From NCBI GenBank assembly GCA_945883545.1, contig CAMCXT010000008.1:7396-71395 (forward strand): a DNA stretch of 64,000 nucleotides. The letters are read 5' to 3'. This document shows, in pieces, positions 622-59,342 of this stretch. The notes under the pieces were generated by a model. The model was not told the DNA's origin, searched no databases, and saw only the letters and a program-made list of their open reading frames with translations. The stretch's first letter is position 1; each line of letters begins with the position of its first letter. The stretch is from Chitinophaga pinensis (lineage in GTDB: Bacteria; Bacteroidota; Bacteroidia; M30B66). The translations under genes were made by a program, and so were the position numbers.

Positions 622-654
622 AGAATGTAATTTGAAATAATTATTAAATGAAAT

Positions 655-1062: not shown

Positions 1063-1115
1063 AATTCACTTTTTACAAATATTATAGTTAAAATTATTCG
1101 CACTTTAAAGTCAAT

Positions 1116-1538: not shown

Positions 1539-1656
1539 TCACATTGATTTGATGTAAAGGTAACCTTTTGATTTCAAACCAAACAAGCACATTATTGCTA
1601 TTAAATTTTCAACTTATAGCAATTTTAATAAGTAAATTCAAATAAATTTAAAATGA

Positions 1657-2288
1657 ATTTAATTTATCCGTCTCAAGCCGATTATAATCGATTATATCCG
1701 TTTAAAACCGGATAACCATCTCTTTTTTCTTTTCCTTGCAACGGGGAGGGGTTGATGGTGTTCCCAACAAAAAATTCAAACCATGGTCAAGTAAAAAGTA
1801 TCAACAAGTGCTGTGAATTCTAAACTCTCCGCTTTAGCAATATTATCCAATTGCATAAATCTTCAACCAGCAACTCAAACCACAACTTGATTTAATTTAT
1901 CCGTCTCAAGCCGATTATAATCGATTATATCCGTTTAAAATCGGATAATCATCTCTTTTTTCTTTTCCTTGCAACGGGGAGGGGCCGATGGTGTTCCTAA
2001 TAAAAAAAATTCAAACCACTGTCAAGCAAAAAGTATCAACAAGTGCTGTGAATTCTAAACTCTCCGCTTTATCAATATTATCCAATTGCATAAATCTTTA
2101 ACCAGCAACTCAAACCACAACTTGATTTAATTTATCCGTCTCAAGCCGATTATAATCGATTATATCCGTTTAAAATCGGATAACCATCTCTTTTTTCTTT
2201 TCCTTGCAACGGGGAGGGGCCGATGGTGTTCCCAACAAAAAAACAAAACCACTGTCAAGCAAAAAGTATCAACAAGTGCAGTGAATTC
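1657..2288. repeat. Tandem array 1: three head-to-tail copies (period 233/235 bp) of a non-coding element; the last copy has the ~164-nt core only
   Basis: Units start at 1657, 1890 and 2125 with ATTTAATTTATCCGTCTCAAGCCG and are near identical. No conserved ORF. Confidence 0.92.
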
Positions 2289-2366
2289 AAGCCAATGTAA
2301 ATTCCGCAAACCTTATTGAAATTAAAATGGTTTGTAATACCTTACTCCCAAAATCAACTACTCCAA

Positions 2367-3794
2367 GTGAATATCCTACATATTGCTGCAGAATGCTATC
2401 CAGCCGCTAAAGCAGGCGGATTAGGCGATGTTGTTGGCGCATTACCCAAATACCTCAATCAAGCTGGACACAAAGCCGCTGTGCTCATTCCTGGTTACCG
2501 ACAAAAATGGATCATCAACCAGCCTTTCGAACACATTTGGAGCGGACTCGTTCGCTTGGGCGACATTAAAATCCCCGTACATATTCGCCGCCACACTGGC
2601 GATTCACTTGGTTTCGAATTACTCATCGCTGATATTCCTGGTCTTTTCGATCGTGAAGGAATCTACACCGATCCGCAATCTGGCTTTGGTTATTCCGATG
2701 AAACCGAGCGATATATTGTATTTCAGCAATGTGCCTTGCAGTATATCCAATCGCTCGACCAAAAGCCCAATGTTATTCATTGCCACGATCACCACACAGG
2801 ACTCATTCCCTTTATGGTGAAACATTGCCCTGAATTCAGAAACCTTTCCCACATTCCTGCCATTTTCACCATCCACAATGGAGTATATCATGGTTCTTTC
2901 GGATGGTCAAAAGCCTGGATACTCCCATGGTATGATGCCGATGCCAACGGACTCCTCGATTGGGCCGGAAATATCAATCCGCTAGCTTGCGGCATCAAAT
3001 GCTGCTGGAAACTCACAACCGTTTCTCCTGGATATTTGCTAGAGTTGCTAGCGTCTTCAAATGGTCTTGAATGGCTTATTAGAAACGAATTGCCTAAATC
3101 GCAAGGCATTCTCAACGGTATCGATACTCAGGTTTGGGACCCCGAATCAGATCCACTCATCGAAAACCGATTTTACAACGATATCAGCAGGTTTAAGTCA
3201 GACAACAAAGCCGTTCTCAGGAAACGTTTCGACATTCATGCCGATCAACCGCTCATCACTTTTATCGGTCGCTTGGTAGCGGAAAAAGGAGCCGATCTCC
3301 TGCCTGATGCCATTGCAAAATTCCTCCACGAAGGTGGAAAAGCCTCATTTGTAGTGCTTGGAACTGGCGATCCAAATCTAAAAGATGCCTTTCTTACCAT
3401 GAAGCATCATTTTACCTCTTGGTTCGATACTTCCATCGAATACAACGAAGCTCTTTCACATCAACTCTACGCTGGAAGCGACTTCCTTGTAATGCCTTCC
3501 CGAGTTGAACCTTGCGGACTAAATCAACTCTACGCTTTCCGATATGGTACTATCCCAATCGTTAGGGCTACAGGCGGTTTAGCAGATACTGTTACAGATG
3601 TTTCACAACCAAACGGAAATGGAATTCGATTCGACCACTTCTCAGTGGATGCCCTTGCCGCAAGTTTTCATCGAGCCACTGCAGTTTATCATCATCCTGA
3701 AGCCATGAACCAACTTCGAGCACACAACATGAGTCTCGATTATAGCTGGGAAAAAGCAGCCAATTCATACATTCATATATATCAAAGCACATAA
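2367..3794 (+). CDS. glgA: Glycogen synthase (ADP-glucose type)
   Basis: ILHIAAECYPAAKAGGLGDVVGALPK N-terminal motif and full-length GT5-like sequence. The ORF opens at TTG 2316; GTG 2367 fits the family N-terminus better. Confidence 0.9.
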   Translation: MNILHIAAECYPAAKAGGLGDVVGALPKYLNQAGHKAAVLIPGYRQKWIINQPFEHIWSGLVRLGDIKIPVHIRRHTGDSLGFELLIADIPGLFDREGIYTDPQSGFGYSDETERYIVFQQCALQYIQSLDQKPNVIHCHDHHTGLIPFMVKHCPEFRNLSHIPAIFTIHNGVYHGSFGWSKAWILPWYDADANGLLDWAGNINPLACGIKCCWKLTTVSPGYLLELLASSNGLEWLIRNELPKSQGILNGIDTQVWDPESDPLIENRFYNDISRFKSDNKAVLRKRFDIHADQPLITFIGRLVAEKGADLLPDAIAKFLHEGGKASFVVLGTGDPNLKDAFLTMKHHFTSWFDTSIEYNEALSHQLYAGSDFLVMPSRVEPCGLNQLYAFRYGTIPIVRATGGLADTVTDVSQPNGNGIRFDHFSVDALAASFHRATAVYHHPEAMNQLRAHNMSLDYSWEKAANSYIHIYQST

Positions 3795-3799
3795 CATTT

Positions 3800-5080: not shown

Positions 5081-5130
5081 AATCTAGTTTTTAGACTTAT
5101 CTAAATTTATTTTTCGCAAGATAAAAATCC

Positions 5131-5138
5131 TATCTTTG
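5131..5138 (+). promoter_or_regulatory. Candidate Bacteroidota -7 promoter element (TATCTTTG = TAnnTTTG) upstream of the metal ABC operon
   Basis: Exact match to TAnnTTTG about 20 nt upstream of ATG 5158. AGATA-N7-TATCT inverted repeat overlaps it. Confidence 0.3.
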
Positions 5139-5157
5139 TGTTGAAATTGATTTGGGT

Positions 5158-6075: not shown

Positions 6076-6077
6076 GC

Positions 6078-8991: not shown

Positions 8992-9070
8992 TGATTATGT
9001 AATTCAAATAATTATTGGTTTTAAATGTAATAGGAAATGCACGCTTAATTTAGATTCAGATCAAAATTAA

Positions 9071-36400: not shown

Positions 36401-36770
36401 GATAGGTTACAATGATGAACTTTTTTTGTTGAACGGTATTAATTTTATTTAATACTTCAGCCCGAAGCAATTTCGCATTCGCGTCGGCTGAGTCTGGATC
36501 ATATACTTTCTTGGATGCTGCTGGAAAAAATATGGCCGAATTTTCAGGCAATAAGCTTTCTAAATCATTTAAGAAATAAGCCGCCAATTCCCGGTCAGGC
36601 AAAATAGCTAAAATGAAATTTTGATTCTCTTGAAACCAAGCGGCAGCCAGCAAACTCTCTACTGATCCCGACATACCAATTAGATTCACCCGATAACCGC
36701 TAGGTAAATCTTGTAAATCCTTCAGTGCCGGATGCTGCTGAAAACGTTGTATTAGCTCTTCTTTTGTCAA
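33411..36770 (-). CDS. mfd: Transcription-repair coupling factor
   Basis: 1119 aa. YVTHVDHGVGKY CarD-like segment, helicase motifs GDVGFGKTEVA, DEEQKFG, TATPIPRT, and C-terminal TRG/D7 region. Confidence 0.95.
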   Translation of the reverse strand: MTKEELIQRFQQHPALKDLQDLPSGYRVNLIGMSGSVESLLAAAWFQENQNFILAILPDRELAAYFLNDLESLLPENSAIFFPAASKKVYDPDSADANAKLLRAEVLNKINTVQQKKFIIVTYPEALLEKVVTHGTLKKNTFKIQRSEKLSIDFVNDFLQEYDFERVDFVTEPGQFAIRGGILDVYSYSDEQPYRIEFFGDEIDSIRSFNPVDQLSVKSLDFVNIVPDVQGKILKESRENFLQFIPTGTSIWMRESELIFERIASDYIKAQEHYAAHGASSIQLSPEELFCDAKEILAGIINFNVIECGSRPVFADRQVIQVHSTPQPAFHKNFNLITQTLTKQTTEGITNLIFSDNARQIERIYAIFEDIGKDIRFTPINMALHEGFIDHSLKIACFTDHQLFDRYHRYKLKDGFSNKESITLKELKGLQPGDYVTHVDHGVGKYAGLEKIDVNGKQQEAIRLVYRDNDILYVSIHSLHRISKFTGKEGTAPKMNKLGSNAWASLKQKTKSRVKDIARDLIKLYAERKTKKGFAFSKDTYLQNELEASFIYEDTPDQIKSTRDIKRDMEKDSPMDRLVCGDVGFGKTEVAVRAAFKAVTDSKQVAVLVPTTILALQHWRTFSERLEQFPCKVDYVNRFKTAKEQKLTLEKLEKGEIDILIGTHRLLSKDVKFKDLGLMIIDEEQKFGVAAKEKLKHIKINVDTLTLTATPIPRTLHFSMMGARDLSVINTPPPNRYPVQTELHTFNEEIIREAINFEIQRGGQVFFVHNRVQNIKEVAEMIVRLCPGVKVLTGHGQMDPEALEDVMMNFIEGRADVLVATTIIESGLDISNANTILINNAHLFGLSDLHQMRGRVGRSNKKAFCYLLTTPVSLLTADARKRLKAIEDFAELGSGFNIAMRDLDIRGAGDLLGAEQSGFIAEIGFDMYHKILDEAIQELKESDFKDLFQEELEEKHKVWVSDCQIDTDLEILIPDQYVTSITERLLLYKDLDNLETEDELLQFGKNLVDRFGAIPRPTAELMNTIRLRWLAKDLGFEKVVLKQQIFVAYFVQNQKSAYYQSESFSRLMQYLAKYPARARMKEKNNKLTLVMDQMRNIDMVVQSLILMKNSIQPEIVLPE

Positions 36771-36835
36771 ACCGGTAGAAATAACAAAGCCTGAATAGAA
36801 ATGTTCTGTTCAGGCTTTAAGAATTATTTTACAAA

Positions 36836-37891
36836 TTAAGATTCTTTTGAGGTAACGTAGGTAGGCTGCAAATTAGCGTCGCTGTATTGCTTCATATAAT
36901 CCATCGATTCATCAACCATAGCAGAAGAACCAATAAATAGAGAACAACGCTGGTGAATATCGGTTGGCTGAATTTCCAAAATATCTCTAAATCCGTCTGT
37001 AGCCTTACCACCTGCTTGTTCAACGATCATCGCCATTGGGTTGCATTCATACATCAAACGCAATTTACCTTTTGGAGACGACAATGTAGTTGGATAAATA
37101 TAAATTCCACCTTTAATTAAATTCCTGTGGAAATCGCTAACCAAAGAACCAATATACCTTAAGGTATAAGGCTTTTTGTTGGCCTTATCATCAATTTGCA
37201 AATTCTTTATATAACGTTTTACTCCTTCAGGAAAATGAACGAAATTACCTTGATTTACAGAATAAATATTTCCTCCTTTTGGAATTCTCATGTCAGGATG
37301 TGACAAACAAAATTCCCCGATTGAAGGGTCCAACGTAAATCCATTTACCCCGTTTCCAGTGGTATAAACGAGCATTGTCGACGAACCATAAACAATATAA
37401 CCGGCTGCAACTTGGTCGGAACCATATTGTAAAAAATCATCAACTGTTGCAGGTCCATTTTTTGTTTTCCTACGGTAAATTGAAAATATTGTACCTACAG
37501 ATACATTCACATCGATATTTGAAGATCCATCCAATGGATCCATCGCAACAATATATCGCCCAGAAGAGGCATTCCCATCAAAAAGAATAATTTCATCATT
37601 CTCTTCAGATGCAACTCCAGCACATTCTCCACCTGAAGCCAATGCAGCTAAAAACTGTTCATTGGCAAAAACATCAAGCTTTTTCTGCGATTCTCCTTGA
37701 ATATTTTCCGACCCCGCTTCTCCTAGAATATTAACCAATCCAGCTTTATTTACTTCACGGTTTACTATTTTTGCGGCGATACTAATATCACTCAATAAAC
37801 TCGACAATTCGCCCTTGGCATAAGGAAAATCTGCTTGTTTATCAATGATGAACTCACCGAGAGTTACCAAATTGCGGTGCGGTCGAATCAT
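36836..37891 (-). CDS. fbp: Fructose-1,6-bisphosphatase class 1
   Basis: ...[24 protein letters not shown]..., ...YSVNQGN..., ...[21 protein letters not shown] motifs. Confidence 0.92.
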
Positions 37892-38476
37892 ACAATTAGT
37901 TAATTTTAGGTTAACAAATATAATAAGAATTGTTTGTTGAGTGGCATTTGAATCAAAGACAATTTCACAAGTTATAACACACTAATAATCAAATCAGAAA
38001 GCCATTTATTCGAGCAGTTATATTGTTTCGGGCGCGCCCCAAAGGGTCACGTGCTTGGCTGTAGTTTGCCACTTTTAACATATGCATAAGTGCAATTTAT
38101 GTTAACATGGCAAAGCTACTTGCCTCGCCCGTTCGCGCAGCATTCTACTCCTATCGGCATCATGTTAAAACTAATCCGATCAATTCGATTAAGGCATCTG
38201 TAAAAACATTCCTGCTATAATGAAACTTTAGTTGTCTACCTAGAACAATCAGCCTAAATAAATCTATTCATTGTTCAAATATAGATTTAACTTCAAATCT
38301 AATGCGTTTATAATCCAGATAATTGAATTAACAACACGACATTGTGCACAAAACTGATCTCTATCGACATAAAATTGAATATACGATAATGCAATCCGAT
38401 TCGTTTGAGAAATTCTGAATGTAAACATTTCAATATCAGTGTTAATTATCCTATTTTTGGATAAATTATTTCAAGC

Positions 38477-39306
38477 ATGAAGAAGTCATTCTTTCTATTA
38501 ACCCTTATTTTCTCAGTATTGTTAGGCCATTCACAAACCAATAATACCTTCCATAGCTTTGATGTTAAAACCATTTTAGGCGACACCATCAGCTTGGAAC
38601 AGTTTTCAGGAAAAAAATCTTGGTTGTGAATACTGCAAGTTTTTGCGCCTACACTTCACAATATGGCCTATTGGAAAGCCTCTATGAACAATACAATCAA
38701 AACTATAATTTCGAAATCATCGGTTTCCCTTGTAATGACTTTGGAAACCAAGAACCGGGGCACGATTCAACAATTCTAGAATTCTGCACCAACACGTACG
38801 ATGTTCAATTTCCAATGATGTCGTCGATTCATATTCGAACTGGCGACACAGCTGCAGTTTACAAATGGTTGCAACGTGGTGACCTTAATGGCGTGTCGGA
38901 TGTTGCTGTTGATTGGAATTTCAATAAGTTCCTCATCGACGAAAATGGCAATTGGGTTGATCATTTTACCAGCACGGTTAGCCCATTCGATTCTTCAATT
39001 GTTAATTGGATCACCAGCGGGAGTGTCTCCACTAAAATGGATGAAGTTCCTTCTGAATCTTTACGCATTTTTAACGGCCCTTCTAACTCGATTCAGTTGC
39101 AATACGAAGGCTTACCAAAGCGCGCTCAATTTAGTCTTTACACAATCGACGGGAAACTCATCCTTTCTAAACAGCTCAGCCTTATCAACGGAAACCAATT
39201 GATTTCTCTCGATGGCATTAATTTTTCCAATGGGTTATTTTTCACAAGAATTGAAATTGAAAATAAACCAATTCATCGCCCAATCGTTTTAATCGGCGGA
39301 AACTAA
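38477..39306 (+). pseudogene. Secreted glutathione peroxidase with T9SS C-terminal sorting domain, frameshifted in an A7 run (38611-38617)
   Basis: Frame 1 reads MKKSFFLLTLIFSVLLG...LEQFSGKK then a stop at 38627. The next frame continues (I)LVVNTASFCAYTSQY...GFPCNDFGNQEPG...WNFNKFLID. The C-terminus has a Por_Secre_tail-like segment. Confidence 0.75.
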
Positions 39307-39325
39307 AACTACTTACTCATCACCA

Positions 39326-39760
39326 ATGAAACATTTGATTGCAGCCTTTCTTTTCCTATCTTTTAATATAGTTGCAACAGCTCAAAAAGCCGAAGATATT
39401 CTCGGAGAATGGCTACCTTCTAAGGGCAAAGCGCACATTAAAATTTCAAAATACGGCGACTACTTTTCAGGACGTATTGTATGGTTAGAAGAACCGAATG
39501 ATGAAAAAACAGGCAAGCCAAAGGTCGACAAAAAGAATCCTGACGTTAAAAGACAAAACACTCCGATTTTAGGCTTGCTGTTGATGCAAGGGTTTAAATT
39601 CGACGATGGTGTATGGACAGATGGTACAATCTATGATGCAGAAAGTGGCAAAACCTACAGTTGCACAATTAAGTTAAAAGACAAAAATACCTTAGAAGTT
39701 CGAGGTTTTATTGGCATTTCACTTATCGGCAGAACCGATGTTTGGACAAGATTTAAATAA
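39326..39760 (+). CDS. DUF2147 domain-containing secreted protein
   Basis: Signal peptide, then GEW....GKAHIKI.K.GD.F.G.IVWL......D..NP.......P..GL........F.....W..G.IYD...GK.Y.C......L.VRGF.G pattern. Confidence 0.78.
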   Translation: MKHLIAAFLFLSFNIVATAQKAEDILGEWLPSKGKAHIKISKYGDYFSGRIVWLEEPNDEKTGKPKVDKKNPDVKRQNTPILGLLLMQGFKFDDGVWTDGTIYDAESGKTYSCTIKLKDKNTLEVRGFIGISLIGRTDVWTRFK

Positions 39761-39822
39761 AATGCGCTGCCCAACCAAAAGCAACGCATTTTATTAATCA
39801 CAACCTACCTATCGTTTTAATT

Positions 39823-42429
39823 TCAAACCAATTCTGTATCCATTTGACGGAACAGCAGCTGGTTTTCTATCATATCAAGCAATATTGGTTTATCCTGTTC
39901 GATTTTTCCAGCCAAAATCTGCTTGCTTAATTCGTTTAATACTTTTCTTTGAAACAAGCGTTTCACTGGCCTTGCACCAAATTGTGGATCATAACCCAAT
40001 TGCGCTAACCAGTCTATCGCTTCTGGTGTTGCATTGATTTTAAAGCCTTGTTCTTTTAATAATTCCTGAACACCAATAAATTGCAACTTCACAATTTCTT
40101 CGACGTTTTCTCTGCTCAAAGGCTGAAACATGATTATGTCGTCGATCCTATTGAGAAACTCAGGCCTGATGGTCTTTTTCAATAATTCAAACACCTTGTT
40201 TTTCGCTGAAGCGATGATCTCTTCTTGATTTGAATCTGTAATATTTTCGAATGATTCTTGAATTAAATGCGAACCGATATTAGACGTCATGATAATGATC
40301 GTGTTTTTAAAATTCACTACACGACCTTTGTTATCGGTCAATCGTCCATCATCAAGCACTTGAAGCAAAATGTTAAACACATCAGGATGCGCTTTTTCAA
40401 TTTCATCCAATAAAACAACACTGTAAGGCTTTCTTCTTACGGCTTCGGTAAGTTGACCACCTTCCTCATAACCTACATAGCCTGGAGGCGCCCCCACCAA
40501 TCGACTCACTGAATGTCTTTCTTGGTATTCACTCATGTCGATTCGCGTCATCGCCTGATCATTGTTGAACAGGAACTCAGCAAGGGCTTTCGCTAATTCG
40601 GTCTTACCAACACCCGTTGTTCCTAAAAAGATGAAAGATCCAATTGGACGTTTTTTATCTTGTAGACCAGCTCTAGCGCGACGAATCGCATCAGAAACAG
40701 CTTCGATGGCTTCTTCCTGACCAACCACTCTTTTATGAAGTTCAGCTTCTAAATGAAGCAATTTTTCTCGCTCACTTTGCAACATGCGGTTCACCGGAAT
40801 GCCTGTCCAACGACTTACTACACCTGCAATATCTTCGGCATCAACTTCCTCTTTAATCATCGCTTTTCCACGTTGAGTTTCGGTAAGTTGATTTTTCAAT
40901 TGCTCAATTTGAAGTTCTGCATCTTTAATTCTACCATAACGAATTTCTGCCACTTTTCCGAAATCGCCCGTTCTTTCAGCTTGTTCAGCTTCAAACTTTA
41001 GTGCTTCAATTTGTTCTTTAGATTTCTGAATTTGGTCTAAAACATCTTTCTCTTGCTGCCATTTGGCGCGCATTGAATCACGTTCTTCACTTAAATTGGC
41101 AATTTCTTCGTTTAATGATGAAAGTTTTTTCTCATCATTTTCGCGTTTAATGGCTTCTCTTTCAATTTCTAGCTGTCTGATTCTTCTTTCCAATTCATCC
41201 AACTCTTCAGGCAGAGAATTAATTTCCATTCTTAATTTGGACGCCGCTTCATCTATTAAATCAATTGCTTTGTCGGGTAAAAATCGGTCGTTGATGTAGC
41301 GTTGACTCATTTCCACTGCGGCGATAATGGCTTCATCACGGATCATTACCTTGTGGTGATTCTCGTATTTTTCCTTTAAACCACGAAGTATCGAAATCGC
41401 ATCTTGACTATCGGGCTCATCAATCAGCACTTTTTGAAATCGACGCTCAAGAGCCTTGTCTTTTTCGAAATATTTTTGGTATTCGTTGAGCGTTGTTGCT
41501 CCAATGGCGCGGAGTTCACCTCGGCTGAGTGCTGGTTTTAAAATATTGGCCGCATCCATTGCGCCTTCTCCCCCACCCGCACCAACGAGCGTATGAATTT
41601 CATCGATAAATAATACAATTTCGCCATCGGCAGACGTAACTTCTTTAACTACAGATTTAAGTCTTTCCTCAAATTCGCCCTTGTATTTTGCACCTGCAAT
41701 TAGCGCTCCCATGTCGAGTGAATAAATCTGTTTTGATTTAAGATTTTCGGGCACATCACCATTCACAATTCTATGTGCTAATCCTTCGGCAATAGCTGTT
41801 TTTCCAACACCTGGCTCACCAATTAAAATCGGATTGTTCTTGGTTCTTCTGGAGAGAATTTGCAATACGCGGCGAATTTCTTCATCACGACCAATTACTG
41901 GATCAAGTTTCCCCAATCGTGCTGCTTCATTGAGGTTTTTAGCATATTTTGAAAGCGCATTGTAAGTGTCTTCAGAACTTTGTGAAGTAACGCGTTGTCC
42001 TTTCCGCAATTCTGCAATTCCAGCTCGGAGGTCTTTTTCATTCACACCCGAATCTTTCAATAGCCTTGCTACAGCATCCGATCCAGCCAATATCGCCAAT
42101 GCCAAATGTTCGATGGAAACAAATTCATCTTTCATTTCCGACATGAGCTGAGTTGCTTTGCTTACAGCTTGTTGAGCGGCATTTGATAAATATGGCTGCC
42201 CTCCACTCACTTTCGGATATCCCAAGACAATGGCATCCAGTGCCGATTCTAAGGCTTTACTGTTTACACTTAATTTTTTAAATAAATAAGGCAATACATT
42301 TTCATCGGCTTCCAAAACACCTTTAAGAAGATGTCCTGTTTCTATTCCTTGTTGTCCATTCTGCATTGCCAGTTGTTGGGCAGCTTGAACAGCTTCTTGA
42401 GCCTTGATAGTAAATTGATTAAAATTCAT
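39823..42429 (-). CDS. clpB: ATP-dependent chaperone ClpB
   Basis: 868 aa. Two AAA+ modules ([18 protein letters not shown]) separated by a long coiled-coil M domain. Clp-N repeats at the N-terminus. Confidence 0.95.
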
Positions 42430-42586
42430 GATTATAGGATTTTTCTCTTGCGGCCTCTCAAATCCTTCACCAAGTAAATTTTACTGAAATAATTACCGAA
42501 AATCCTTATCACACAAGTCAATTTGGCTTGTTTATAAAATCAATGTGCTAATTCGGCAGATAATTTTCAATTTTCAGGCGCCCAAC

Positions 42587-42970
42587 TCATCGACTGAGCA
42601 AAAAATTCCAGATCAAAACCGTTATTAATGAAATTGGAATCCCGATGCTCAGCATTAAACTACTGAAACGGGGCTTCAATCCATAAGCACTCGCTACAAT
42701 AGCAGCAGTTACCATGGGGGCCATTGCTGCTTCCAACACACAAACTTTCATTTCTTGACCATTTTGCCCAAAACAAAAACGATATAAAATCCCAATAAAT
42801 AATGGGGCTAAAAAGAGCTTAATCGGAATGTAATGCAGTGCGAGCGAAGGAATCGCGATCCAAATGACGTATTGATTTAGCGTAACATGCGACTGATCGG
42901 GCAGTTTTTTAGAGCGTTTCAGCAGTGCTCCAAGGATAAGAGAAATAAAAATGAGTAAAATGTTCGCCAC
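42587..42970 (-). pseudogene. AEC (auxin efflux carrier)-family transporter remnant, 127 aa instead of ~300
   Basis: The N-terminus (ILLIFISLILGALLKRSKKLP......LNQYV.WIAIPSL) and C-terminus (EAAMAPMVTAAIVASAYGL.P...S..L..GI..SLITV..W) resemble the two ends of AEC permeases. The middle is missing and the start is GTG. Confidence 0.45.
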
Positions 42971-43182
42971 GGTTCAAAGGTATTCATTTGACTAAAAAGC
43001 CGTCGTTGCGCACTTGCAGTTTTAACCCGCATATCTACCCAAATAATTTTAAACGACTCATTTTCTATTATTTACAACAAAATAGCGAATCAAAAGCCCA
43101 AAATCACCAAACCGCCCATTGCCACATTTGCCATCATTGACTACATTTGCGTCATTCATCGACTAGTTATTCGTCAATAAAT

Positions 43183-46119
43183 ATGTTGAACTGTCACTCA
43201 TGGTTTAGTCTACGCTATGGCACCTTATCGCCAGAGCAGCTCATTGCGCAATTGCTTGAGCTTGGCTATACGAGTGCGGCATTAACCGACATCAACACAA
43301 CCTCAGGATGCCTCGATTTTGTGCGCATCTCGAATGAGATGGGCCTACATCCTGTAATTGGCGTAGAGTTTCGCGATGATGGATTGCTCCAGTTTGTTGC
43401 TCTAGCGATTAATAATGATGGATTTGAGCTGATCAATCGGCATTTGTCGTCGAAACTTACTGAAGGAGCAACCCTAGCAGCCGAAGCTCCAGAACAATGG
43501 AATGGGCACGTTTGGGTGATTTATCCTTTGAAGAACATTCCCAAAAGAAAACTGTTTCCCAACGAATTCATAGGTCTTAGCCTTCAAGATTTGAAAAGTG
43601 TATGGAAGCCTAGAGATCCGATCCTCAACAGAGCAGTAGTTTTACAAGCATTTACCTTTCCCGACAAAGCGCATAACAATATCCATAGGCTATTGCGAGC
43701 GATCGATCAAAATACTTTACTGAGCTTACTCGACCCTCTGCAATGTGCCGCGCCTGATGCCTTTTTACTTCCACGAAAAGACCTTGTGTCTGCTTTTTCG
43801 TCATTCCCTGAAGTCATCGCGCGCAGTTTGCAGTTGCTAGAATCTTGCAATGTAGAATTTGAGTTTGGCGTATCAAAAAACCGAAAAACCTTTACTGGAT
43901 CTAAGGTGCAAGACAGGCAACTTCTCGAGAAACTAAGTTTGGATGGCATGCAATATCGTTACGGCAAGAAGAACAAAGAAGCCCAGAAAAGATTGAAGCA
44001 TGAGTTGGAGGTGATTGATAAATTAGGCTTCACACCCTATTTTCTGATCACTGAAGACATCATCCGCTATGCTCGACACCGAGGATTTTTCCATGTTGGA
44101 AGAGGGAGCGGCGCCAATAGCATTGCGGCTTACTGCTTACAAATTACGGATGTTGACCCCATCGAATTGGACCTATATTTTGAGCGATTCATCAATCCGC
44201 ACCGCACATCGCCGCCCGATTTCGATCTCGATTTTTCGTGGCGCGACCGTGATGAAATTTTGAATTACATATTTCAGCGATACGGCACCGAACATACTGC
44301 TCTAATTGCGACTTACACAACTTTCCAAGACAGGGCCGTTATTCGAGAATTGGGCAAGGTGTTCGGGTTGCCGAAATCGGAAATCGACATTCTCAGCGGA
44401 CTCAAGCAACTCCCCAAAGATGCAGATCAAATTAGCCGATTGATCTTTCGTTACGGTGAAAAAATCCATGGCTTCCCTAATCATTTGGGCATCCATGCAG
44501 GCGGAGTGATCATTTCAGAGTCGCCCATTTATCGATATACCGCCACCCAAATGCCTCCCAAGGGCTTGCCCATTACACAATTCGACATGTATGTTTCGGA
44601 AGAAGTGGGCTTATATAAATACGATATATTAAGTCAGCGCGGATTGGGACACATTCGAGAAGCCACCGAATTGATTCTCGAAAACAGGCAAATCAGTGTG
44701 GATATCCACCGGGTTTCGGAATTCAAAAAGGACTTGAAAATCAAACAGCTCATAAAGACAGGTCGAACAATGGGCTGTTTCTATGTTGAATCACCCGCGA
44801 TGCGGATGTTGTTAAGTAAACTAAAATGTGAAGATTATATCACACTGGTTGCGGCAAGCTCAATTATTCGACCGGGAGTTGCGAAATCCGGTATGATGAG
44901 AGAATACATCCACCGTTTTCACCATCCAGGAAGCTTCAGCTACATCCACCCAAAGATGGAAGAGCTCCTCAAAGAAACCTATGGGGTTATGGTTTACCAG
45001 GAGGATGTAATTAAGGTAGCGCATCATTTTGCAGGGCTAGATCCTGCCGATGCCGATATATTGCGCAGAGGAATGTCGGGGAAATTCAGGTCGGCGAAAG
45101 CCTTCCAACTCGTTGCAGATAAATTCATGCAAAACTGCCGCGATATGGGCTATCCCGAAGCGGTTTACACCGAGGTTTGGCGACAAATGGAGAGCTTTTC
45201 GGGGTATTCGTTTTCTAAAGCGCATTCTGCCTCTTTTGCCGTAGAAAGTTTTCAGAGTCTATATCTGAGAGCACATTTTCCACTGGAATTTATGACTGCC
45301 GTATTGAACAACTTCGGTGGATTTTACAAAACACAAGATTATGTGCATGAGGCACGCATGCTTGGTGCTAAAATCGAGGCGCCTTGCGTGAACAGAAGCA
45401 TGCACTTAAACAGCATTTTCGACGATTCAATATACTTAGGTTTTGTGCTTCTGCACCAGCTCGAGGAGCGGAGTTCTGCCATGATTCTCCGCGCTCGAGC
45501 GCAGAGTGGGCCCTTTCTTGGACTTGCTGATTTTGTTTCGCGCGTTAACATTGGTTTGGAACAAGTCCTTATTCTGATTCGTGTTGGAGCCTTTCGATTC
45601 ACCAGTAAACCCAAAAAAGAACTGCTTTGGGATGCACATCTTATTGTAAACAAAACAAGTGTGAAGGTGGAAAAGCCAGCACAGCTATTTCATGCCAATG
45701 AGCCAGATTACAAATTCCCAAACTTAGAAGACTCGTTTATTGAAAATGCATACGATGAGATCGAATTATTGGGATTTCCATTGTGCTCTCCATTCGATCT
45801 AATTGCCCCAACGAAAGATGAATCGATTCGAGCCAAAGAATTATGCAACAACTTAGGGAAACAGGTGCAGATTCTTGGTAGCGTGGTGGCAGTAAAAGAC
45901 ACTCGAACGGTGAAAGGCGAACGAATGAACTTTGCCACATTTGTAGATCAGGATGGCTATTTCTTCGACAGTACACATTTTCCACAAGTGGTAAAACAGT
46001 CGCCTTTCCGAGGCCGCGGCATTTATCGCCTGAAAGGAAAAGTTGCTTGTGAGTTTGGCTTCTTCAGTCTCGAGGCAAGTTACATGGAAAAGATCCCTTA
46101 CCTCGCAAGGGGATATTGA
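43183..46119 (+). CDS. dnaE2: DNA polymerase III alpha-subunit homologue, short DnaE2/ImuC-like form
   Basis: N-terminal PHP motif (LNCHSWFSLRYG), ...GRGSGANS..., ...PPDFDLDF..., ...GIHAGGV..., ...FSKAHSASFA. About 978 aa, so it lacks the long DnaE1 C-terminus. Confidence 0.8.
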   Translation: MLNCHSWFSLRYGTLSPEQLIAQLLELGYTSAALTDINTTSGCLDFVRISNEMGLHPVIGVEFRDDGLLQFVALAINNDGFELINRHLSSKLTEGATLAAEAPEQWNGHVWVIYPLKNIPKRKLFPNEFIGLSLQDLKSVWKPRDPILNRAVVLQAFTFPDKAHNNIHRLLRAIDQNTLLSLLDPLQCAAPDAFLLPRKDLVSAFSSFPEVIARSLQLLESCNVEFEFGVSKNRKTFTGSKVQDRQLLEKLSLDGMQYRYGKKNKEAQKRLKHELEVIDKLGFTPYFLITEDIIRYARHRGFFHVGRGSGANSIAAYCLQITDVDPIELDLYFERFINPHRTSPPDFDLDFSWRDRDEILNYIFQRYGTEHTALIATYTTFQDRAVIRELGKVFGLPKSEIDILSGLKQLPKDADQISRLIFRYGEKIHGFPNHLGIHAGGVIISESPIYRYTATQMPPKGLPITQFDMYVSEEVGLYKYDILSQRGLGHIREATELILENRQISVDIHRVSEFKKDLKIKQLIKTGRTMGCFYVESPAMRMLLSKLKCEDYITLVAASSIIRPGVAKSGMMREYIHRFHHPGSFSYIHPKMEELLKETYGVMVYQEDVIKVAHHFAGLDPADADILRRGMSGKFRSAKAFQLVADKFMQNCRDMGYPEAVYTEVWRQMESFSGYSFSKAHSASFAVESFQSLYLRAHFPLEFMTAVLNNFGGFYKTQDYVHEARMLGAKIEAPCVNRSMHLNSIFDDSIYLGFVLLHQLEERSSAMILRARAQSGPFLGLADFVSRVNIGLEQVLILIRVGAFRFTSKPKKELLWDAHLIVNKTSVKVEKPAQLFHANEPDYKFPNLEDSFIENAYDEIELLGFPLCSPFDLIAPTKDESIRAKELCNNLGKQVQILGSVVAVKDTRTVKGERMNFATFVDQDGYFFDSTHFPQVVKQSPFRGRGIYRLKGKVACEFGFFSLEASYMEKIPYLARGY

Positions 46120-46581
46120 AAAGTATAAAGCAGCCAGCTTAAGAAACGGTGATTCATAAAAATCATAGCAATGTAAAGGTATTGATTTCGCAAAGCGATT
46201 TTTGGGTTGATTATACCTGTCGATACAATTGAATTTTGTCAATTTCGATTTTCGAAAATACTTTATCAGACAACAATTAATAGGTTTGTCATTACTTCGG
46301 AGAATTTATCGAGTATAATACTTCAAATAAAACAAGTTAAATCCATTTTTTTCTGCAAATAAAAGTTGGCTTGTAAAAAACTTTCAATCATCTCAGAGGA
46401 TTTAAAATTCATATTCAATCAACAATTAACGCATAAATAAATACCGATATTAGGCAATCTTAAAAGCTCTAACAAAAGAAATATGAGAACTTTTAAACGC
46501 AAAATAAACAAGGTTATAAACAGAACTGTTTGTAATAAAAAAACAAGACTGTTTAAGGTATTTCTCATTTAACGAAATTTG

Positions 46582-46956
46582 CACTGGGAAGGGGATAGAT
46601 GCGGGTTCCCTTCGACAATTCAAAATAACTTGTCAAGTGAAAAATGAGAAAAGAAATCAACACGACTGTTAATTCTAATTTGATCATTCAATTCGATAGT
46701 GTTTAATTAAACCCGAACTTTCCACTGGGAAGGGGATAGATGCGGGTTCCCTGCGACAATTCAAAATAACTTGTCAAGTGAAAAAAGGAGAAAAGAAATC
46801 AACACGACTGTTAATTCTAATTTGATCATTCAATTCGATGGTATTTAACTAAATCCGAACTTTCAACTGGGAATGGGATAGATGCGGGTTCCCTTCGACA
46901 ATTCAAAATAATTTGTCAACTGGAAAATGAGAAAATAAATCAACACGACTGTTATT
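46582..46956. repeat. Tandem array 2: three copies (period 141 bp) of a non-coding element related to the core of array 1; the last copy has the core only
   Basis: Cores start at 46582, 46723 and 46864 (CACTGGGAAGGGGATAGATGCGGGTTCCC...). The linkers are also conserved. A degenerate partial copy may lie just upstream. Confidence 0.92.
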
Positions 46957-47108
46957 GGTAATGGCAATAATGACGAGCAGGTTGTGTATTCAATTATATT
47001 TTACTAGACTAGAAAATAATCTTAAAATAAAAGTAATGAGAAAAGTCAGCAAATCAATGTCATAGGCTCTTGTAATGTTGAACTCAATGTCATACCTTAG
47101 ACAAAGAG

Positions 47109-47879
47109 ATGAAAGGATTTCAAATCACAAGCAAAAAATACTTTGACGATTCTATGTCATTGATTGGCAATGAAATAGATAATCTAGTCAGTAGATTTGA
47201 TTTCAAATACAAAGACTTAGATCTTGGCTATCAAACTCAGTCTTCGGCTGTTTATTCTTCAAACATTGAAGGAAATACAATTGATTTGAATTCATTCATG
47301 AATTTCAAATTATCAAATGAAAAATTTAAACCCAGTAAAGAAATAAAAGAAATTGAAGACCTAATTCTTGCATACGATTTTGCTCAGAAAGAGATCTTAA
47401 ACCAGAAAAACTTCCTTAAAATTCATAAAATTCTATCTGAAACACTATTAATATCGAGTTTAAGAGGTAAGTATAGAAATGATAAAGTTGGAGTTTTTAG
47501 CGAGTCTGGATTAGTCTACTTTGCTATAGAATCTGAATTTCTAAAAGAAACTATGAATGAGTTATTTTCAGAAATCGGAGAAATTTTATCAAGTAATTTA
47601 AGCATTGAAGAAGTTTTTTATTTCGCATCACTTATTCACATGAAGTTTGTTCACATCCACCCATTTAGAGAAGGAAATGGTAGAACTGCAAGAATTCTTG
47701 AAAAATGGTTTATTACAACAAAACTTGGCGAAGAATTTTGGAAACTACCTTCTGAAAAGTATTATAAAGAAAAACAAGCTGATTATTACAGAAATCTAAA
47801 TTTAGGAGTGAATTATTATGAGTTGAATTATGACAAATGCTTGCCTTTTTTAACTATGCTGCCAAACTGCATGAAATAA
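47109..47879 (+). CDS. Fic-family protein (class II type with internal inhibitory motif)
   Basis: Fic motif HPFREGNGRTAR. N-terminal SSNIEG fits the [ST]xxxE[GN] inhibitory-helix motif. Confidence 0.88.
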   Translation: MKGFQITSKKYFDDSMSLIGNEIDNLVSRFDFKYKDLDLGYQTQSSAVYSSNIEGNTIDLNSFMNFKLSNEKFKPSKEIKEIEDLILAYDFAQKEILNQKNFLKIHKILSETLLISSLRGKYRNDKVGVFSESGLVYFAIESEFLKETMNELFSEIGEILSSNLSIEEVFYFASLIHMKFVHIHPFREGNGRTARILEKWFITTKLGEEFWKLPSEKYYKEKQADYYRNLNLGVNYYELNYDKCLPFLTMLPNCMK

Positions 47880-48074
47880 TTGATTCAATCGCATAATAAC
47901 TAATAGGCTCAATTAGGTAATTGGTAGTTTTCACAATCATCGAGTTACCAGAAAACCTTCAATAACTTTTATACATTTGAGAAAACTTGCCATTTATTGC
48001 CAACAGCACATCGATGTTTTCAATGATTCAACAAATCAGTTTTAAAATGGTCACAGAAAATAAATTAAGAAAAA

Positions 48075-48605
48075 ATGAAATTTATTTTTGCCTTTTTTTT
48101 GACCGTATTTACAACAACAGTTTATTCTCAAAGATTCGACAGTCTTGAGATTCCTTCCAATTCATTTGAAAGTAGCTACCGAAAGACAAATCCTAATTTA
48201 ATGTATAAATATGACGATATATCCCAAACACACAACTACTCTAATAACTGGGACTTTGACAAAGACGGGATAAATGACGAACTGTATTTTATTGGAACAG
48301 GTGGTACGCATTTATACTATTATCTAAAAGTGATTTTGAGTACTGATAAATTACCCCGAGAATTTGATTTCATCCAATCTGACTTTCCTTTCCTAACAGC
48401 GACCGACACATTGAATATGAATAAAACACCTTTAGGTTTTGTCGTCGCAGACCTTGAAACAGACATGAAACCAACTGTTATCGTTCGTCTTGATGATAAA
48501 ACATATCAAGTGAATAAAAATAAATTGACTAAACTGAGAATCAAAACTAGAAATATTGCGATTAGCTTTGAAAATGGCAAATCAAATTACCAAAGCCTAA
48601 AATAA
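48075..48605 (+). CDS. Hypothetical secreted protein
   Basis: Signal peptide MKFIFAFFLTVFTTTVYSQ. No recognised domain. Confidence 0.5.
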   Translation: MKFIFAFFLTVFTTTVYSQRFDSLEIPSNSFESSYRKTNPNLMYKYDDISQTHNYSNNWDFDKDGINDELYFIGTGGTHLYYYLKVILSTDKLPREFDFIQSDFPFLTATDTLNMNKTPLGFVVADLETDMKPTVIVRLDDKTYQVNKNKLTKLRIKTRNIAISFENGKSNYQSLK

Positions 48606-49454: not shown

Positions 49455-49647
49455 CTCGGACTAAAGTCCGAGGCTGCGAGGAGTCCGAGGCAGCATGGAA
49501 TCCGAGGCAGCTAAGAGAAAACACAAACCTATAAAATGATCACCAACACACCCTGCAACCACGGACTTTAGTCCGTGGAAACATGGAAACAAGAACTTGT
49601 GCATTTTAAAATGGTCGCAATCGCAACCACGGTCTTTAGTCCGTGGA
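49455..49647. repeat. REP-like palindromic element cluster 1 (three full copies plus two half-sites)
   Basis: CCTCGGACTAAAGTCCGAGG (49455-49474). CCACGGACTTTAGTCCGTGG (49560-49579) and CCACGGTCTTTAGTCCGTGG (49628-49647) are in the opposite orientation. Half-sites (A)GTCCGAGGCAGC lie at ~49483 and ~49500. Confidence 0.85.
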
Positions 49648-59240: not shown

Positions 59241-59275
59241 CGTATTTCGTAATTCGTATTTCGTATTTCGTATTT
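59241..59275. repeat. Heptanucleotide microsatellite (CGTATTT/CGTAATT) x5
   Basis: CGTATTT CGTAATT CGTATTT CGTATTT CGTATTT, flanked by the 10-bp inverted repeat GTACAACGTA (59235-59244) / TACGTTGTAC (59301-59310). Confidence 0.85.
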
Positions 59276-59342
59276 CGCTTATTCACAACGTTGTAATTAA
59301 TACGTTGTACGTTGCACCTATTTAGCTAATACGATCATTCAT

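What the first reader, a model, noticed from the sequence alone, without database searches (positions are those of the whole stretch)
46582..46956. Second tandem array (3 x 141 bp) in the 990-bp gap between the DnaE2-like gene and a Fic gene
Cores start at 46582, 46723 and 46864. Here too the last copy carries only the ~94-nt core (CACTGGGAAGGGGATAGATGCGGGTTCCC ... ATCAACACGACTGTTAATTC), giving core-linker-core-linker-core. The 20-codon ORF starting ATGAGAAAAG in copy 1 is destroyed in copy 2 (ATG becomes AGG) and truncated in copy 3 (early TAA), so the element is non-coding. Three hairpins can be drawn. The first is CTTTCC-ACTG-GGAAGG, where the linker end pairs with the core start, closed by ACCCG/CGGGT. 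The second is the alternative GGGAA-N15-TTCCC. The third is a 3' stem TAAC...GTTA in copies 1-2 that becomes AATAAT...GTTATT in copy 3, through a C>T change and loss of one A that extend pairing. A degenerate partial copy (AACAAGACTGTTTAAGG) lies just upstream at ~46544. The array sits in an AT-rich islet next to a Fic gene.
Basis: seen in the sequence. Interest (0 to 1): 0.7.

Follow-up and report, generated by a model that had tools for sequence, protein, structure and literature searches.

The report
Strain-variable non-coding tandem repeat family
The 3 x 141-bp array is real and belongs to a small family of non-coding tandem repeats found only in one narrow group of uncultured Flavobacteriales; copy number differs between strains and the arrays sit where gene order has been rearranged, but nothing shows that it is a structured RNA or a gene.

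Summary
There are three head-to-tail units (cores at 46582, 46723 and 46864; period 141-142 nt), and they are homologous to the 235-nt array at 1657-2288.

No Rfam family matches. No phage, plasmid or viral-contig relative was found.

The family is confined to one narrow uncultured Flavobacteriales lineage. It occupies at least three loci: downstream of a Pol III alpha (dnaE-family) gene, upstream of glgA, and upstream of rpe. In each case the units point the same way as the downstream gene.

- **Copy number:** it varies among near-identical strains, 2, 3, 3+ or 4+ units at array 2 and 2 or 3 at array 1.
- **Edge copies:** these decay.
- **Next relatives:** they lack arrays at the same junctions.
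- **Synteny:** in one relative dnaE directly abuts glgA, so the window's two arrays bracket a 43.7-kb block whose ends are joined elsewhere.
- **Fic:** the gene is a strain-specific insertion at the array edge.
- **Folding:** energies equal those of shuffled sequence, and formal pair counts show no covariation.
- **Per-unit signals:** I found no promoters or terminators.
- **Evolution:** units change at close to the neutral rate.
- **Short ORFs:** they show dN/dS of about 1.

Best reading: a lineage-specific minisatellite-like intergenic repeat that expands and contracts by unequal recombination. A regulatory RNA or DNA role is not excluded.

The parts
46582..46675 (+). Array 2, unit 1 core (94 nt), carrying the G-block GGGAAGGGG-ATA-GATG-CGG-GTTCCC
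46676..46722 (+). Array 2, linker 1 (47 nt). It is homologous to the 3' part of Block I plus the spacer of the array-1 units.
46723..46817 (+). Array 2, unit 2 core (95 nt)
46818..46863 (+). Array 2, linker 2
46864..46955 (+). Array 2, unit 3 core. This terminal copy is the most diverged (87-90% to the other two; GGGAATGGG) and has no linker after it.
46517..46581 (+). Decayed leader with two AACA-N4-TGTT remnants and a GGTATTT..CGAA..TTTGC segment. It looks like an eroded unit upstream of unit 1 and is conserved in L087, L101 and L107-L110.
1657..2288 (+). Array 1: 2.7 units of 235 nt from the same family. Each unit is Block I (with the 22-bp near-palindrome CGATTATAATCGATTATATCCG), a 25-nt spacer, Block II (TTCCTTGCAACGGGGAGGGGCCGATGGTGTTCCC), a 3' half and a 70-nt linker. 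It ends 78 nt before glgA.
43183..46119 (+). Pol III alpha family gene (978 aa as called in relatives). Array 2 is anchored to its 3' side in every strain examined. A DnaE2/ImuC assignment is not established.
2367..3794 (+). glgA (followed by glgC), the gene downstream of array 1. In relatives L102 and L103 it lies directly after the dnaE-family gene.
46963..48005 (+). Strain-specific insertion carrying the Fic gene (47109-47879; GC 29%). It replaces the last linker and decayed unit that L101 and L087 have at this position.
46565..46687 (-). Minus-strand open frame of unit 1 (40 codons, MIKLELTVVLISFLIFHLTSYFELSKGTRIYPLPSANFVK). Unit 2 has a 22-codon version at 46761-46829. I judge both to be compositional, not coding.
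48075..48605 (+). 176-aa ORF with no family match (Pfam, NCBIfam). It is the gene that directly follows the array in strains without Fic (97.5% identical in L101; L087 has a similar ORF at this position).

Best explanation
Array 2 is one locus of a lineage-specific, low-copy family of non-coding tandem repeats. It behaves like a minisatellite (VNTR) in an uncultured Flavobacteriales lineage.

**Shown**
- Units are head-to-tail.
- Arrays gain and lose whole units between near-identical strains.
- Internal copies are kept similar to each other, while edge copies erode.
- Units change at close to the neutral rate.
- The arrays lie at points where gene order differs from the nearest array-free relatives.
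- Accessory DNA (the Fic cassette) has been inserted at an array edge.

**Inferred**
- Copy number changes by unequal homologous recombination or replication slippage between units.
- Arrays 1 and 2 descend from sequence that once lay in one dnaE-glgA spacer and were separated by a rearrangement through or beside the repeats.
- The arrays act mainly as recombination-prone DNA, not as genes.
- Any effect on the downstream gene would be a by-product. All three array types point the same way as the gene 80-150 nt downstream, so changed spacing or leader content is conceivable. It would not be a dedicated function.
For: **Tandem structure and family**
-.

**Copy-number polymorphism**
- Array 2 has 3 units in the window and 2 in L001 (99.4-99.95% identical flanks).
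- It has 3 plus a partial unit in L087 and 4 plus a decayed fifth in L101.
- Array 1 has 3 units in the window and 2 in L123 (97-98% identical).
- Four short-read contigs all break at the same base inside unit 1.

**Homogenisation and edge decay**
- Three of the four full L101 cores are identical to each other.
- Terminal window unit 3 is only 87-90% identical to its neighbours.
- The last unit of L123 has a scrambled 3' half.

**Near-neutral evolution (window against L101)**
- Four-fold degenerate sites are 87% identical and unique intergenic sequence 82%.
- Linkers are about 86% and cores on average 91.5% identical.

**Narrow distribution**
- A scan of one genome per species (185,579 species) gave 85 hits, about the ~90 chance matches I estimated for this pattern. 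Only one was real: a Flavobacteriales MAG 86% identical to the window.
- The JGI metagenome scan gave two real contigs.
- Array-free orthologous junctions occur in relatives at 86% (DnaE), 68-74% (GlgA) and 81% (Rpe) protein identity.

**Rearrangement**
- In L102 and L103, dnaE is followed after 239 nt by glgA-glgC. Window 35823-46087 and 2377-9839 are contiguous there.
- The rpe-type array also sits at a local inversion breakpoint relative to L120.

**No sign of a gene or RNA**
- Rfam negative.
- Folding z-scores about 0.
- No covariation.
- No promoter-like or terminator-like site recurs in every unit.
- ORFs are not conserved, and dN/dS is about 1.
Against: - All three array types share orientation with the gene just downstream. 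For three loci this has a chance probability of about 1 in 8, and it hints at a role tied to that gene.
- Some blocks persist across arrays that are otherwise only about 65% alike: GGGRAGGGG-N2-3-GATG-N2-4-GTTCC, TGTCAAG and ATCAACA.
- Between the glgA-type and rpe-type units, two blocks of 44 and 42 nt are 93-98% identical. They flank an unalignable spacer of almost the same length, 25 nt.
- Internal cores are slightly better conserved than four-fold sites (91.5% against 87%; P about 0.06 for one pair).
- Three co-ordinated substitutions turn CCACTG..CAAGTG into the perfect pair CAATTG..CAATTG in some units. This needs either selection for pairing or quasi-palindrome correction.
- A family with only about three loci is unusual for selfish repeats.
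- No transcription data were available.
Confidence: 0.5

Rival explanations
1. Tandem array of small regulatory RNAs, or repeated modules of a cis-acting leader RNA, read from the + strand. The 5' domain would be two adjacent hairpins sharing the G-block: pyrimidine tract with GGGRA, and GGGG with UCCC with GAUG in the loop. The single-stranded UGUCAAG and AUCAACA would then act as the functional segments.
For: - Units are co-oriented with the downstream gene at three loci.
- The G-block, GATG and GTTCC are conserved across all three array types.
- Several changes are wobble-compatible only on the + strand: ACCCG/CGGGU to AUCCG/UGGGU, and UCCCU to UCCCC.
- Opposite the R of GGGRAGGGG, C-G in array 1 becomes U-A in array 2.
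- The + strand of the array is purine-rich, like the sense strand of its neighbours.
Against: - No Rfam hit, even at E<10, that makes sense.
- Minimum free energy is no better than shuffles on either strand.
- Pair counting gives 0 pairs with changes on both sides, no better than shuffled or slid controls.
- No unit carries a terminator-like hairpin plus U-tract, a sigma-70-like promoter, or a Bacteroidetes-type TTG-N19-TAnnTTTG promoter on the + strand.
- The candidate -7 box in the linker varies (TTTA, TTTG, TTAA) between strains.
- A pyrimidine tract pairs with a G-run in many registers, so the one 'compensatory' pair is weak evidence.
- Units evolve near the neutral rate.
Confidence: 0.22
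2. Tandemly duplicated promoter/operator (cis-regulatory DNA) modules. Block I, with its 22-bp near-palindrome CGGTTATAATCGATTATAACCG, and Block II (the G-block) would be protein-binding sites at a fixed distance. Duplication of the module would tune expression of the gene downstream.
For: - The palindrome is perfect in L119 unit 1 and within 1-2 mismatches elsewhere. It occurs only in the arrays: six strand-matches in the window against 0 expected.
- The two blocks are 93-98% identical between glgA-type and rpe-type units, although the spacer between them is unalignable and of nearly the same length: 55 against 56 nt from the palindrome centre to the G-block.
- The array-2 unit is 21 nt shorter there, which is two helical turns (counted from the sequence).
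- Units are co-oriented with the downstream genes.
Against: - The palindrome is absent from array-2 units.
- No single-copy occurrence was found upstream of any other gene in the 64-kb window or the fetched loci.
- TATAAT is not the known -7 motif of Bacteroidota primary sigma factors (own knowledge), and no TTG/TAnnTTTG pair fits.
- An ECF-like GGAAC-N16-CGT can be read on the minus strand of array 1. Its spacing changes in array 2, and CGT becomes CGC in the rpe-type units.
- The blocks-and-spacer mosaic could come from a single replacement event.
Confidence: 0.15
3. Tandem type I toxin-antitoxin-like modules. Each array-2 unit would encode a small membrane peptide on the minus strand (MIKLELTVVLISFLIF... 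with a polar, aromatic tail; 22-46 aa), with the + strand giving an antisense RNA.
For: - Every array-2 unit in three lineages has this open frame, and one unit is exactly 47 codons.
- In the window and L087 each frame starts at an ATG directly after the previous stop.
- A hydrophobic N-terminus with a polar C-terminal tail is the architecture used to search for type I toxins, which are often tandemly duplicated in one intergenic region (PMC2887945).
- The two changes seen in the hydrophobic segment are conservative: L to F and V to I.
Against: - dN/dS is 0.7-2.8 between lineages, and variable sites fall 9/9/8 on codon positions 1/2/3.
- ATG is ATA in all four L101 units.
- Frameshifts of +1 and +7 nt and a nonsense change occur in three units.
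- The frame is not shared with array 1, which has a different 26-aa ORF, and the rpe-type units have no such ORF.
- The minus strand is T-rich. This both suppresses stop codons and yields hydrophobic codons. With that composition I estimate that one or no stop in 47 codons has a probability of about 0.3 per frame.
Confidence: 0.07
4. Non-autonomous mobile element (MITE-like or REP/BIME-like) that inserted at several intergenic sites and then duplicated.
For: - Three separate loci.
- Arrays at synteny breakpoints.
- A Bacteroidota precedent exists for a minisatellite inside a MITE: BrickBuilt (PMC4596501).
Against: - No terminal inverted repeats or target duplications flank the arrays beyond AT-rich chance matches.
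- Only about three loci. The scans found one locus in the related MAG and two contigs in the JGI data.
- No similarity to the IS element or integrase neighbourhoods in the fetched loci.
- No phage, plasmid or viral-contig hits.
Confidence: 0.05
5. Assembly artefact (collapsed or expanded repeat, or a chimeric join).
For: - Short-read contigs break inside unit 1.
- Copy number differs between two contigs of the same sample.
Against: - Arrays with the same flanks were recovered in independent assemblies from ENA, JGI, NCBI and Logan.
- Units within an array differ at several positions, so they are not a collapsed duplicate.
- Arrays 1 and 2 are only about 65% alike, too different to cause a chimeric join.
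Confidence: 0.01

Closest known systems
BrickBuilt minisatellite/MITE of Porphyromonas gingivalis (PMC4596501)
   Same: - Found in Bacteroidota.
- Strictly intergenic.
- Tandemly repeated non-coding units with leader and tail segments.
- Species-restricted.
- Copy number differs between strains.
- Discussed as a driver of genome evolution and a modulator of neighbouring transcription.
   Different: - BrickBuilt units are 23 nt with no spacers. They sit inside a MITE with inverted-repeat ends and occur 19 times per genome.
- Here the units are 141-249 nt, no inverted ends were found, and only about three loci are seen.
- There is no sequence similarity.
Tandemly duplicated type I toxin-antitoxin loci of E. 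coli (ibs-sib, ldr-rdl; PMC2887945)
   Same: - Long direct repeats within one intergenic region.
- Units of 100-500 nt.
- A short hydrophobic ORF on one strand, overlapped by the other strand.
- Single or tandem copies depending on the strain.
   Different: - The ORF here shows no coding-type constraint (dN/dS about 1).
- It loses its ATG in one lineage.
- It is not shared with arrays 1 and 3.
- No promoter or terminator for an antisense RNA was found.
Tandem sRNA gene arrays (for example NsiR1 of Nostoc, LhrC1-5 of Listeria, CcsR1-4 of Rhodobacter; own knowledge)
   Same: - Near-identical units of 100-250 nt arrayed head to tail in one intergenic region.
- Units share orientation.
   Different: - In those arrays each unit carries its own promoter and an intrinsic terminator, and folds into conserved hairpins.
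- None of the three features could be shown here.
Neisseria intergenic mosaic elements and pneumococcal BOX elements (own knowledge)
   Same: - Intergenic arrays of repeat modules with a variable number of internal units.
- Associated with recombination and rearrangement, and with effects on neighbouring genes.
   Different: - Those are high-copy families (tens to hundreds of loci) with shorter modules and defined boundary repeats.
- This family is low-copy and has no boundary repeats.

Membership tests
Any Rfam 15 RNA family | Covariance-model score at or above the family's gathering threshold | tested here: not met
   - The whole window at gathering threshold gives only two tRNAs.
- Both arrays at E<=10 give only chance-level hits far below threshold: best 23 bits against 100.
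- Loci with related arrays give only a tRNA.
Tandem sRNA gene array | Each unit has its own promoter | tested here: inconclusive
   - Sigma-70-type sites are no more frequent than in shuffles and none recurs in every unit.
- My own scan for the Bacteroidetes TTG-N17-23-TAnnTTTG motif finds no per-unit + strand site. On the minus strand it finds only a 1-mismatch -7-like TTATTTTG with no -33 element.
- Consensus scans cannot exclude unusual promoters.
Tandem sRNA gene array | Each unit ends in an intrinsic terminator | tested here: not met
   There is no terminator-like site inside either array. The 3' hairpin AACA-CGAC-UGUU has 4 A-U-rich pairs and no U-tract.
Structured ncRNA (general) | Conserved secondary structure supported by covariation or by folding energy beyond background | tested here: not met
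   - z-scores range from -0.87 to +1.67 against 200 dinucleotide shuffles, on both strands.
- For the best candidate helix set, 0 pairs show change on both sides, and the paired fraction is no better than the controls.
- The sample is small and closely related, so power is low.
Structured ncRNA / sRNA | Discrete transcript | not testable with these tools
   No transcriptome data were available.
Minisatellite / VNTR-type tandem repeat | Head-to-tail units without unique spacers | tested here: met
   TRF gives period 142 x 2.7 copies and period 235 x 2.7 copies. The linkers are repeated along with the cores.
Minisatellite / VNTR-type tandem repeat | Whole-unit copy-number differences between close strains | tested here: met
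   Array 2 has 2, 3, 3+ or 4+ units. Array 1 has 2 or 3 units.
Minisatellite / VNTR-type tandem repeat | Within-array homogenisation with divergent edge copies | tested here: met
   - Three of the four full L101 cores are identical to each other.
- The window's terminal unit is 87-90% identical to its neighbours.
- Decayed units flank the arrays.
Type I toxin-antitoxin | Conserved short ORF for a membrane peptide under coding constraint | tested here: not met
   - The ORF is present, but dN/dS is about 1 and changes spread evenly over codon positions (9/9/8).
- ATG becomes ATA in L101, and frameshifts occur.
- The ORF is absent from the other array types.
MITE / REP-like mobile repeat | Terminal inverted repeats, target-site duplication, many dispersed copies | tested here: not met
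   - Inverted-repeat search gives only AT-rich chance pairs.
- Only three loci are known.
- One true hit was found among 185,579 species genomes.
CRISPR array | Short (24-48 nt) repeats separated by unique spacers | tested here: not met
   Repeats are 94 nt, and the intervening 47 nt are themselves repeated.
Integron cassette array (attC sites) | R''/R' core sites (RYYYAAC ... GTTRRRY) bounding each unit | tested here: not met
   Read from the sequence: GTTAATT and AAATAAC do not fit the consensus, and array 1 has GTGAATT.

The most novel reading that the evidence does not exclude
The units are functional modules of a previously undescribed kind in Bacteroidota. Two forms are possible:
- Tandem type I toxin-antitoxin-like cassettes, with a minus-strand membrane peptide (MIKLELTVVLISFLIF...) and a + strand antisense RNA.
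- Arrays of a small RNA whose invariant Shine-Dalgarno-like G-block plus AUG (GGAGGGG-N5-AUG) acts as a decoy for ribosomes or for an RNA-binding protein. This would be in a lineage that otherwise does not use Shine-Dalgarno sequences: only 2 of 31 long ORFs have one.
Probability: 0.1. Interest if true: 0.65.

Novelty: new member of a known kind. Interest (0 to 1): 0.3.

Why it matters
**If it is what it looks like.** Then this is a clean natural example of a long-unit bacterial minisatellite. Its arrays change length between strains, mark rearrangement breakpoints and attract accessory DNA. Such an element could serve as a strain marker. It is also a warning for metagenome assembly, because contigs of this lineage break exactly there.

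**If the conserved G-block, the palindrome or the small ORF turn out to be functional.** Then it would add a regulatory RNA, operator or toxin-like family to a phylum whose post-transcriptional regulation is poorly known. The present evidence does not support that step.

Tried and rejected
- **Rfam** at gathering and permissive thresholds on both arrays and on related loci found nothing.
- **Genome-collection pattern scan** gave 85 hits, of which 84 were chance.
- **Viral contigs, phage records and plasmid records** gave no relatives.
- **A proto-unit in the array-free dnaE-glgA spacer of L102.** Local alignment scores lie within the shuffle range.
- **glgA-anchored synteny** in relatives at 68-74% identity shows short spacers and no element.
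None is thermodynamically distinctive or formally covarying. The alternatives were an outer ACC..GGU helix, the P1/P2 hairpins on the G-block, and the AAUUCA/UGAAUU plus CACUGU/ACAAGUG 3' domain.
- **+ strand short ORFs behind the SD-like G-block** (MRVPFDNSK; MVFPTK...). GTTCCC is read in different frames in arrays 1 and 2, and length ranges from 7 to 37 aa.
- **Minus-strand hydrophobic ORF:** dN/dS about 1.
- **Promoter and recombination-site readings** do not fit. I tried a sigma-70 TTGACA on the minus strand, an ECF-like GGAAC-N16-CGT, a sigma-54 TTGCA, DnaA-box-like TTATCCG and integron attC sites.
- **A first estimate of strong purifying selection** (95-97% core identity) came from gap-tolerant alignment. 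Column-wise identity is 86-96%, mean 91.5%, against 87% at four-fold sites.
- **High identity of array 1 to L003.** It is part of a recombination tract that also covers coding sequence, so it is not evidence of constraint.
Full report
**1.

Tandem Repeats Finder reports an array at 46573-46954 with period 142, 2.7 copies and 92% matches.
- Cores begin at 46582, 46723 and 46864.
- Core 1 is 94 nt and ends in GTTAATTC.
- Linkers of 47 and 46 nt separate the cores, and the third core has no linker.
- The ATGAGAAAAG ORF is lost in copies 2 and 3.
- Degenerate AACA-N4-TGTT remnants lie just upstream.
- The gap between the polymerase gene and Fic is 989 nt and is AT-rich.

The 235-nt array at 1657-2288 is homologous. 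Both share the blocks ..TTCC..GGGRAGGGG-N2-3-GATG-N2-4-GTTCCC..AATTCAAA..TGTCAAG..ATCAACA..CTGT.AATTC. An HMM built from the six units finds these six copies in the window and nothing else.

**2. It is no known RNA family and is not phage- or plasmid-borne**

Rfam 15 gives only two tRNAs in the window at gathering threshold. Permissive searches of both arrays and of related loci give only chance-level hits. Viral contigs, phage records and plasmid records hold nothing similar.

**3. Where it occurs**

The window matches an ENA metagenome assembly (ERZ27280302). The contig retrieved from that sample, L001, has 99.4-99.95% identical flanks and one 141-nt unit fewer.

I scanned one genome per species (185,579 species) with a pattern that fits both arrays. 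It returned 85 loci, about the ~90 chance matches I estimated for this pattern. The HMM accepted only one of them. That locus, L003, is a MAG labelled Flavobacteriales bacterium EUL_048. It is about 86% identical to window 646-6040 and carries the array-1 orthologue upstream of glgA.

A JGI metagenome scan gave two true contigs, both from one sample.
- L087 has the array-2 type: 3 units plus a partial fourth, with the same upstream flank as the window.
- L095 has two units of a third type, with a period of about 249 nt, upstream of rpe.

Look-ups anchored on neighbouring proteins added the following.
- L101 (DnaE 99% identical) has four units plus a decayed fifth and no Fic gene.
- Four Logan contigs (DnaE 97-98%) all end at the same base inside unit 1, at ...GGGAAGGGGATAGATGC.
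- L123 (97-98% identical to the window) has two units in array 1 instead of three.
- L119 has the rpe-type array between an ECF-sigma gene pair and rpe.

The next relatives have no array at these junctions.
- GlgA relatives at 68-74% identity have spacers of 85-130 nt.
- The Rpe relative at 81% identity has a 26-nt spacer after a peptidase gene.
- The DnaE relative at 75% identity has an 89-nt spacer.

**4. Synteny**

In L102 and L103 (DnaE 86% identical, two independent assemblies) the polymerase gene is followed after 239 nt by glgA-glgC. In those loci, window 35823-46087 is contiguous with window 2377-9839. That spacer has no detectable unit.

So in the window, array 1 and array 2 bracket a 43.7-kb block whose two ends are joined in a sister lineage. 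The simplest reading is that the two arrays descend from sequence that once lay in one dnaE-glgA spacer and were separated by a rearrangement. The direction of change cannot be settled with these data.

The rpe-type array also coincides with a local inversion relative to L120.

The Fic gene is not part of the system. Window ~46963-48005 (GC 29%) replaces the last linker and decayed unit seen in L101. Both L101 and L087 lack Fic at this position; in L101 the 176-aa ORF follows the array directly, and L087 has a similar ORF there.

The polymerase is a 978-aa Pol III alpha family protein. NCBIfam places it no closer to the error-prone subfamily than to DnaE, so 'DnaE2-like' is not established.

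**5. Is it a structured RNA?**

- The units fold no better than dinucleotide shuffles on either strand, with z from -0.87 to +1.67.
- RNAalifold consensus structures are short. They comprise a pyrimidine-tract:G-block hairpin, a GGGG:UCCC hairpin with GAUG in its loop, and in array 2 the GACAA/UUGUC and AACA/UGUU hairpins.
- Formal counting on the best 3' helix set shows no pair with changes on both sides. It is no better than the shuffled or slid controls.
- A few changes are wobble-compatible on the + strand only. The R of GGGRAGGGG also co-varies with a pyrimidine opposite it. A pyrimidine tract can pair with a G-run in many registers, so this is weak.
- One notable event was seen in array-1 and rpe-type units. 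Three substitutions convert CCACTG..CAAGTG into the perfect pair CAATTG..CAATTG. This indicates either selection for pairing or quasi-palindrome correction by template switching. It does not show which strand or molecule is involved.
- No sigma-70-like promoter, Bacteroidetes-type promoter or intrinsic terminator recurs in every unit.

**6. Is it coding?**

The G-block followed by ATG looks like a Shine-Dalgarno site plus start codon. However, the lineage does not use such sites: only 2 of 31 long ORFs have one.

The downstream ORFs range from 7 to 37 codons, and GTTCCC is read in different frames in arrays 1 and 2.

On the minus strand every array-2 unit has an open frame of 22-46 codons (MIKLELTVVLISFLIF...). 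One unit is exactly 47 codons. This resembles tandem type I toxin loci (PMC2887945). Several results speak against coding.
- dN/dS between lineages is 0.7-2.8, and variable sites fall 9/9/8 on the three codon positions.
- ATG is ATA in all four L101 units.
- Three units carry frameshifts or a nonsense change.
- Array 1 has a different 26-aa ORF in another frame, and the rpe-type units have none.

The minus strand is T-rich, which by itself yields few stops and hydrophobic codons. I therefore treat the ORF as compositional, with a residual probability of 7%.

**7. Rate of change**

Between the window and L101, identity by class of site is:

| Class of site | Identity |
|---|---|
| Four-fold degenerate sites in DnaE and ClpB | 87% |
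| Unique spacer upstream of the array | 82% |
| Linkers | about 86% |
| Cores | 86-96%, mean 91.5% |

For one internal pair the excess conservation has P about 0.06. An earlier 95-97% figure was inflated by gap-tolerant alignment.

- Three of the four full L101 cores are identical to each other.
- The window's terminal unit is the most diverged.
- Array 1 is 92-100% identical to L003. That high-identity tract (window ~1350-2100) also covers 140 nt of coding sequence at 100%, in an 85% background. It therefore reflects recent recombination and not constraint.

**8. What argues for some function**

- All three array types point the same way as the gene 80-150 nt downstream.
- The G-block/GATG/GTTCC motif is present in 18 of 20 units across arrays that are otherwise about 65% alike.
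- Between glgA-type and rpe-type units, two blocks of 44 and 42 nt are 93-98% identical. They lie around an unalignable spacer of almost the same length.
- Block I holds a 22-bp near-palindrome, CGGTTATAATCGATTATAACCG. It is perfect in one L119 unit and is found nowhere else in the window.

These features keep a cis-regulatory DNA or RNA role alive, but none is decisive.

**9. Verdict**

The finding is real. It extends to a small family with interesting population and genome-structure behaviour.

The evidence best fits a lineage-specific, minisatellite-like non-coding repeat (confidence 0.5). The closest precedent in the same phylum is the BrickBuilt minisatellite/MITE of Porphyromonas gingivalis (PMC4596501). 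This family differs from it in unit length, copy number and the absence of inverted ends.

Rival readings and my confidence in each:
- sRNA or leader modules: 0.22
- Duplicated promoter/operator modules: 0.15
- Type I toxin-like cassettes: 0.07
- Mobile element: 0.05
- Assembly artefact: 0.01

I rate interest as modest (0.3).

Noticed in passing
window 2377-46087, with L102 8375-18548: The two ends of this 43.7-kb block are adjacent in relatives L102 and L103, where dnaE is directly followed by glgA-glgC. In the window they are separated, and each end carries one of the two arrays.
   Followed up: partly
window 46963-48005: The Fic gene (GC 29%) is a strain-specific insertion at the array edge. 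It has a weak NCBIfam hit to 'mobile mystery protein B'. A short inverted motif, TGGCAATAA / TTATTGCCA, lies at its two borders.
   Followed up: partly
window 42587-42970 (junction at 42822/42823): The Mem_trans family transporter gene is truncated to 127 aa. L101, L110 and L102 have 302-317 aa versions, and about 525 nt are missing in the window.
   Followed up: partly
L101 3538-4557, corresponding to window 38258-38266: An IS element (DDE_Tnp_1 transposase, 302 aa) is inserted in L101 but not in the window. The flanks overlap by 9 bp, as expected for a target-site duplication. L102 and L110 carry a tyrosine integrase gene in the same neighbourhood.
   Followed up: no
window 1350-2100, against L003: A tract is 92-100% identical (100% over 1401-1700) in an ~85% background. 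It covers the 5' end of the 140-aa membrane-protein gene, the unique spacer and the first units of array 1. I read it as a recent recombination tract that ends inside the array.
   Followed up: partly
window 46565-46687 and 46761-46829 (minus strand): Hydrophobic short open frames (40 and 22 codons) run antisense to the array-2 cores and recur in L087 and L101. Their evolution looks neutral.
   Followed up: yes
L119 9450-10000; L095 1-480: A third array type of the family (2 units, period ~249 nt) lies upstream of rpe. In L119 it follows an ECF-sigma gene and a 263-aa gene. The 81%-identical relative L120 has a peptidase M14 gene 26 nt before rpe instead.
   Followed up: partly
window 49465-49511; 59241-59277; 37691-37746: Other small tandem repeats are present: 17 nt x 2.8, 7 nt x 5.3 and 27 nt x 2.1. 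I did not examine them.
   Followed up: no
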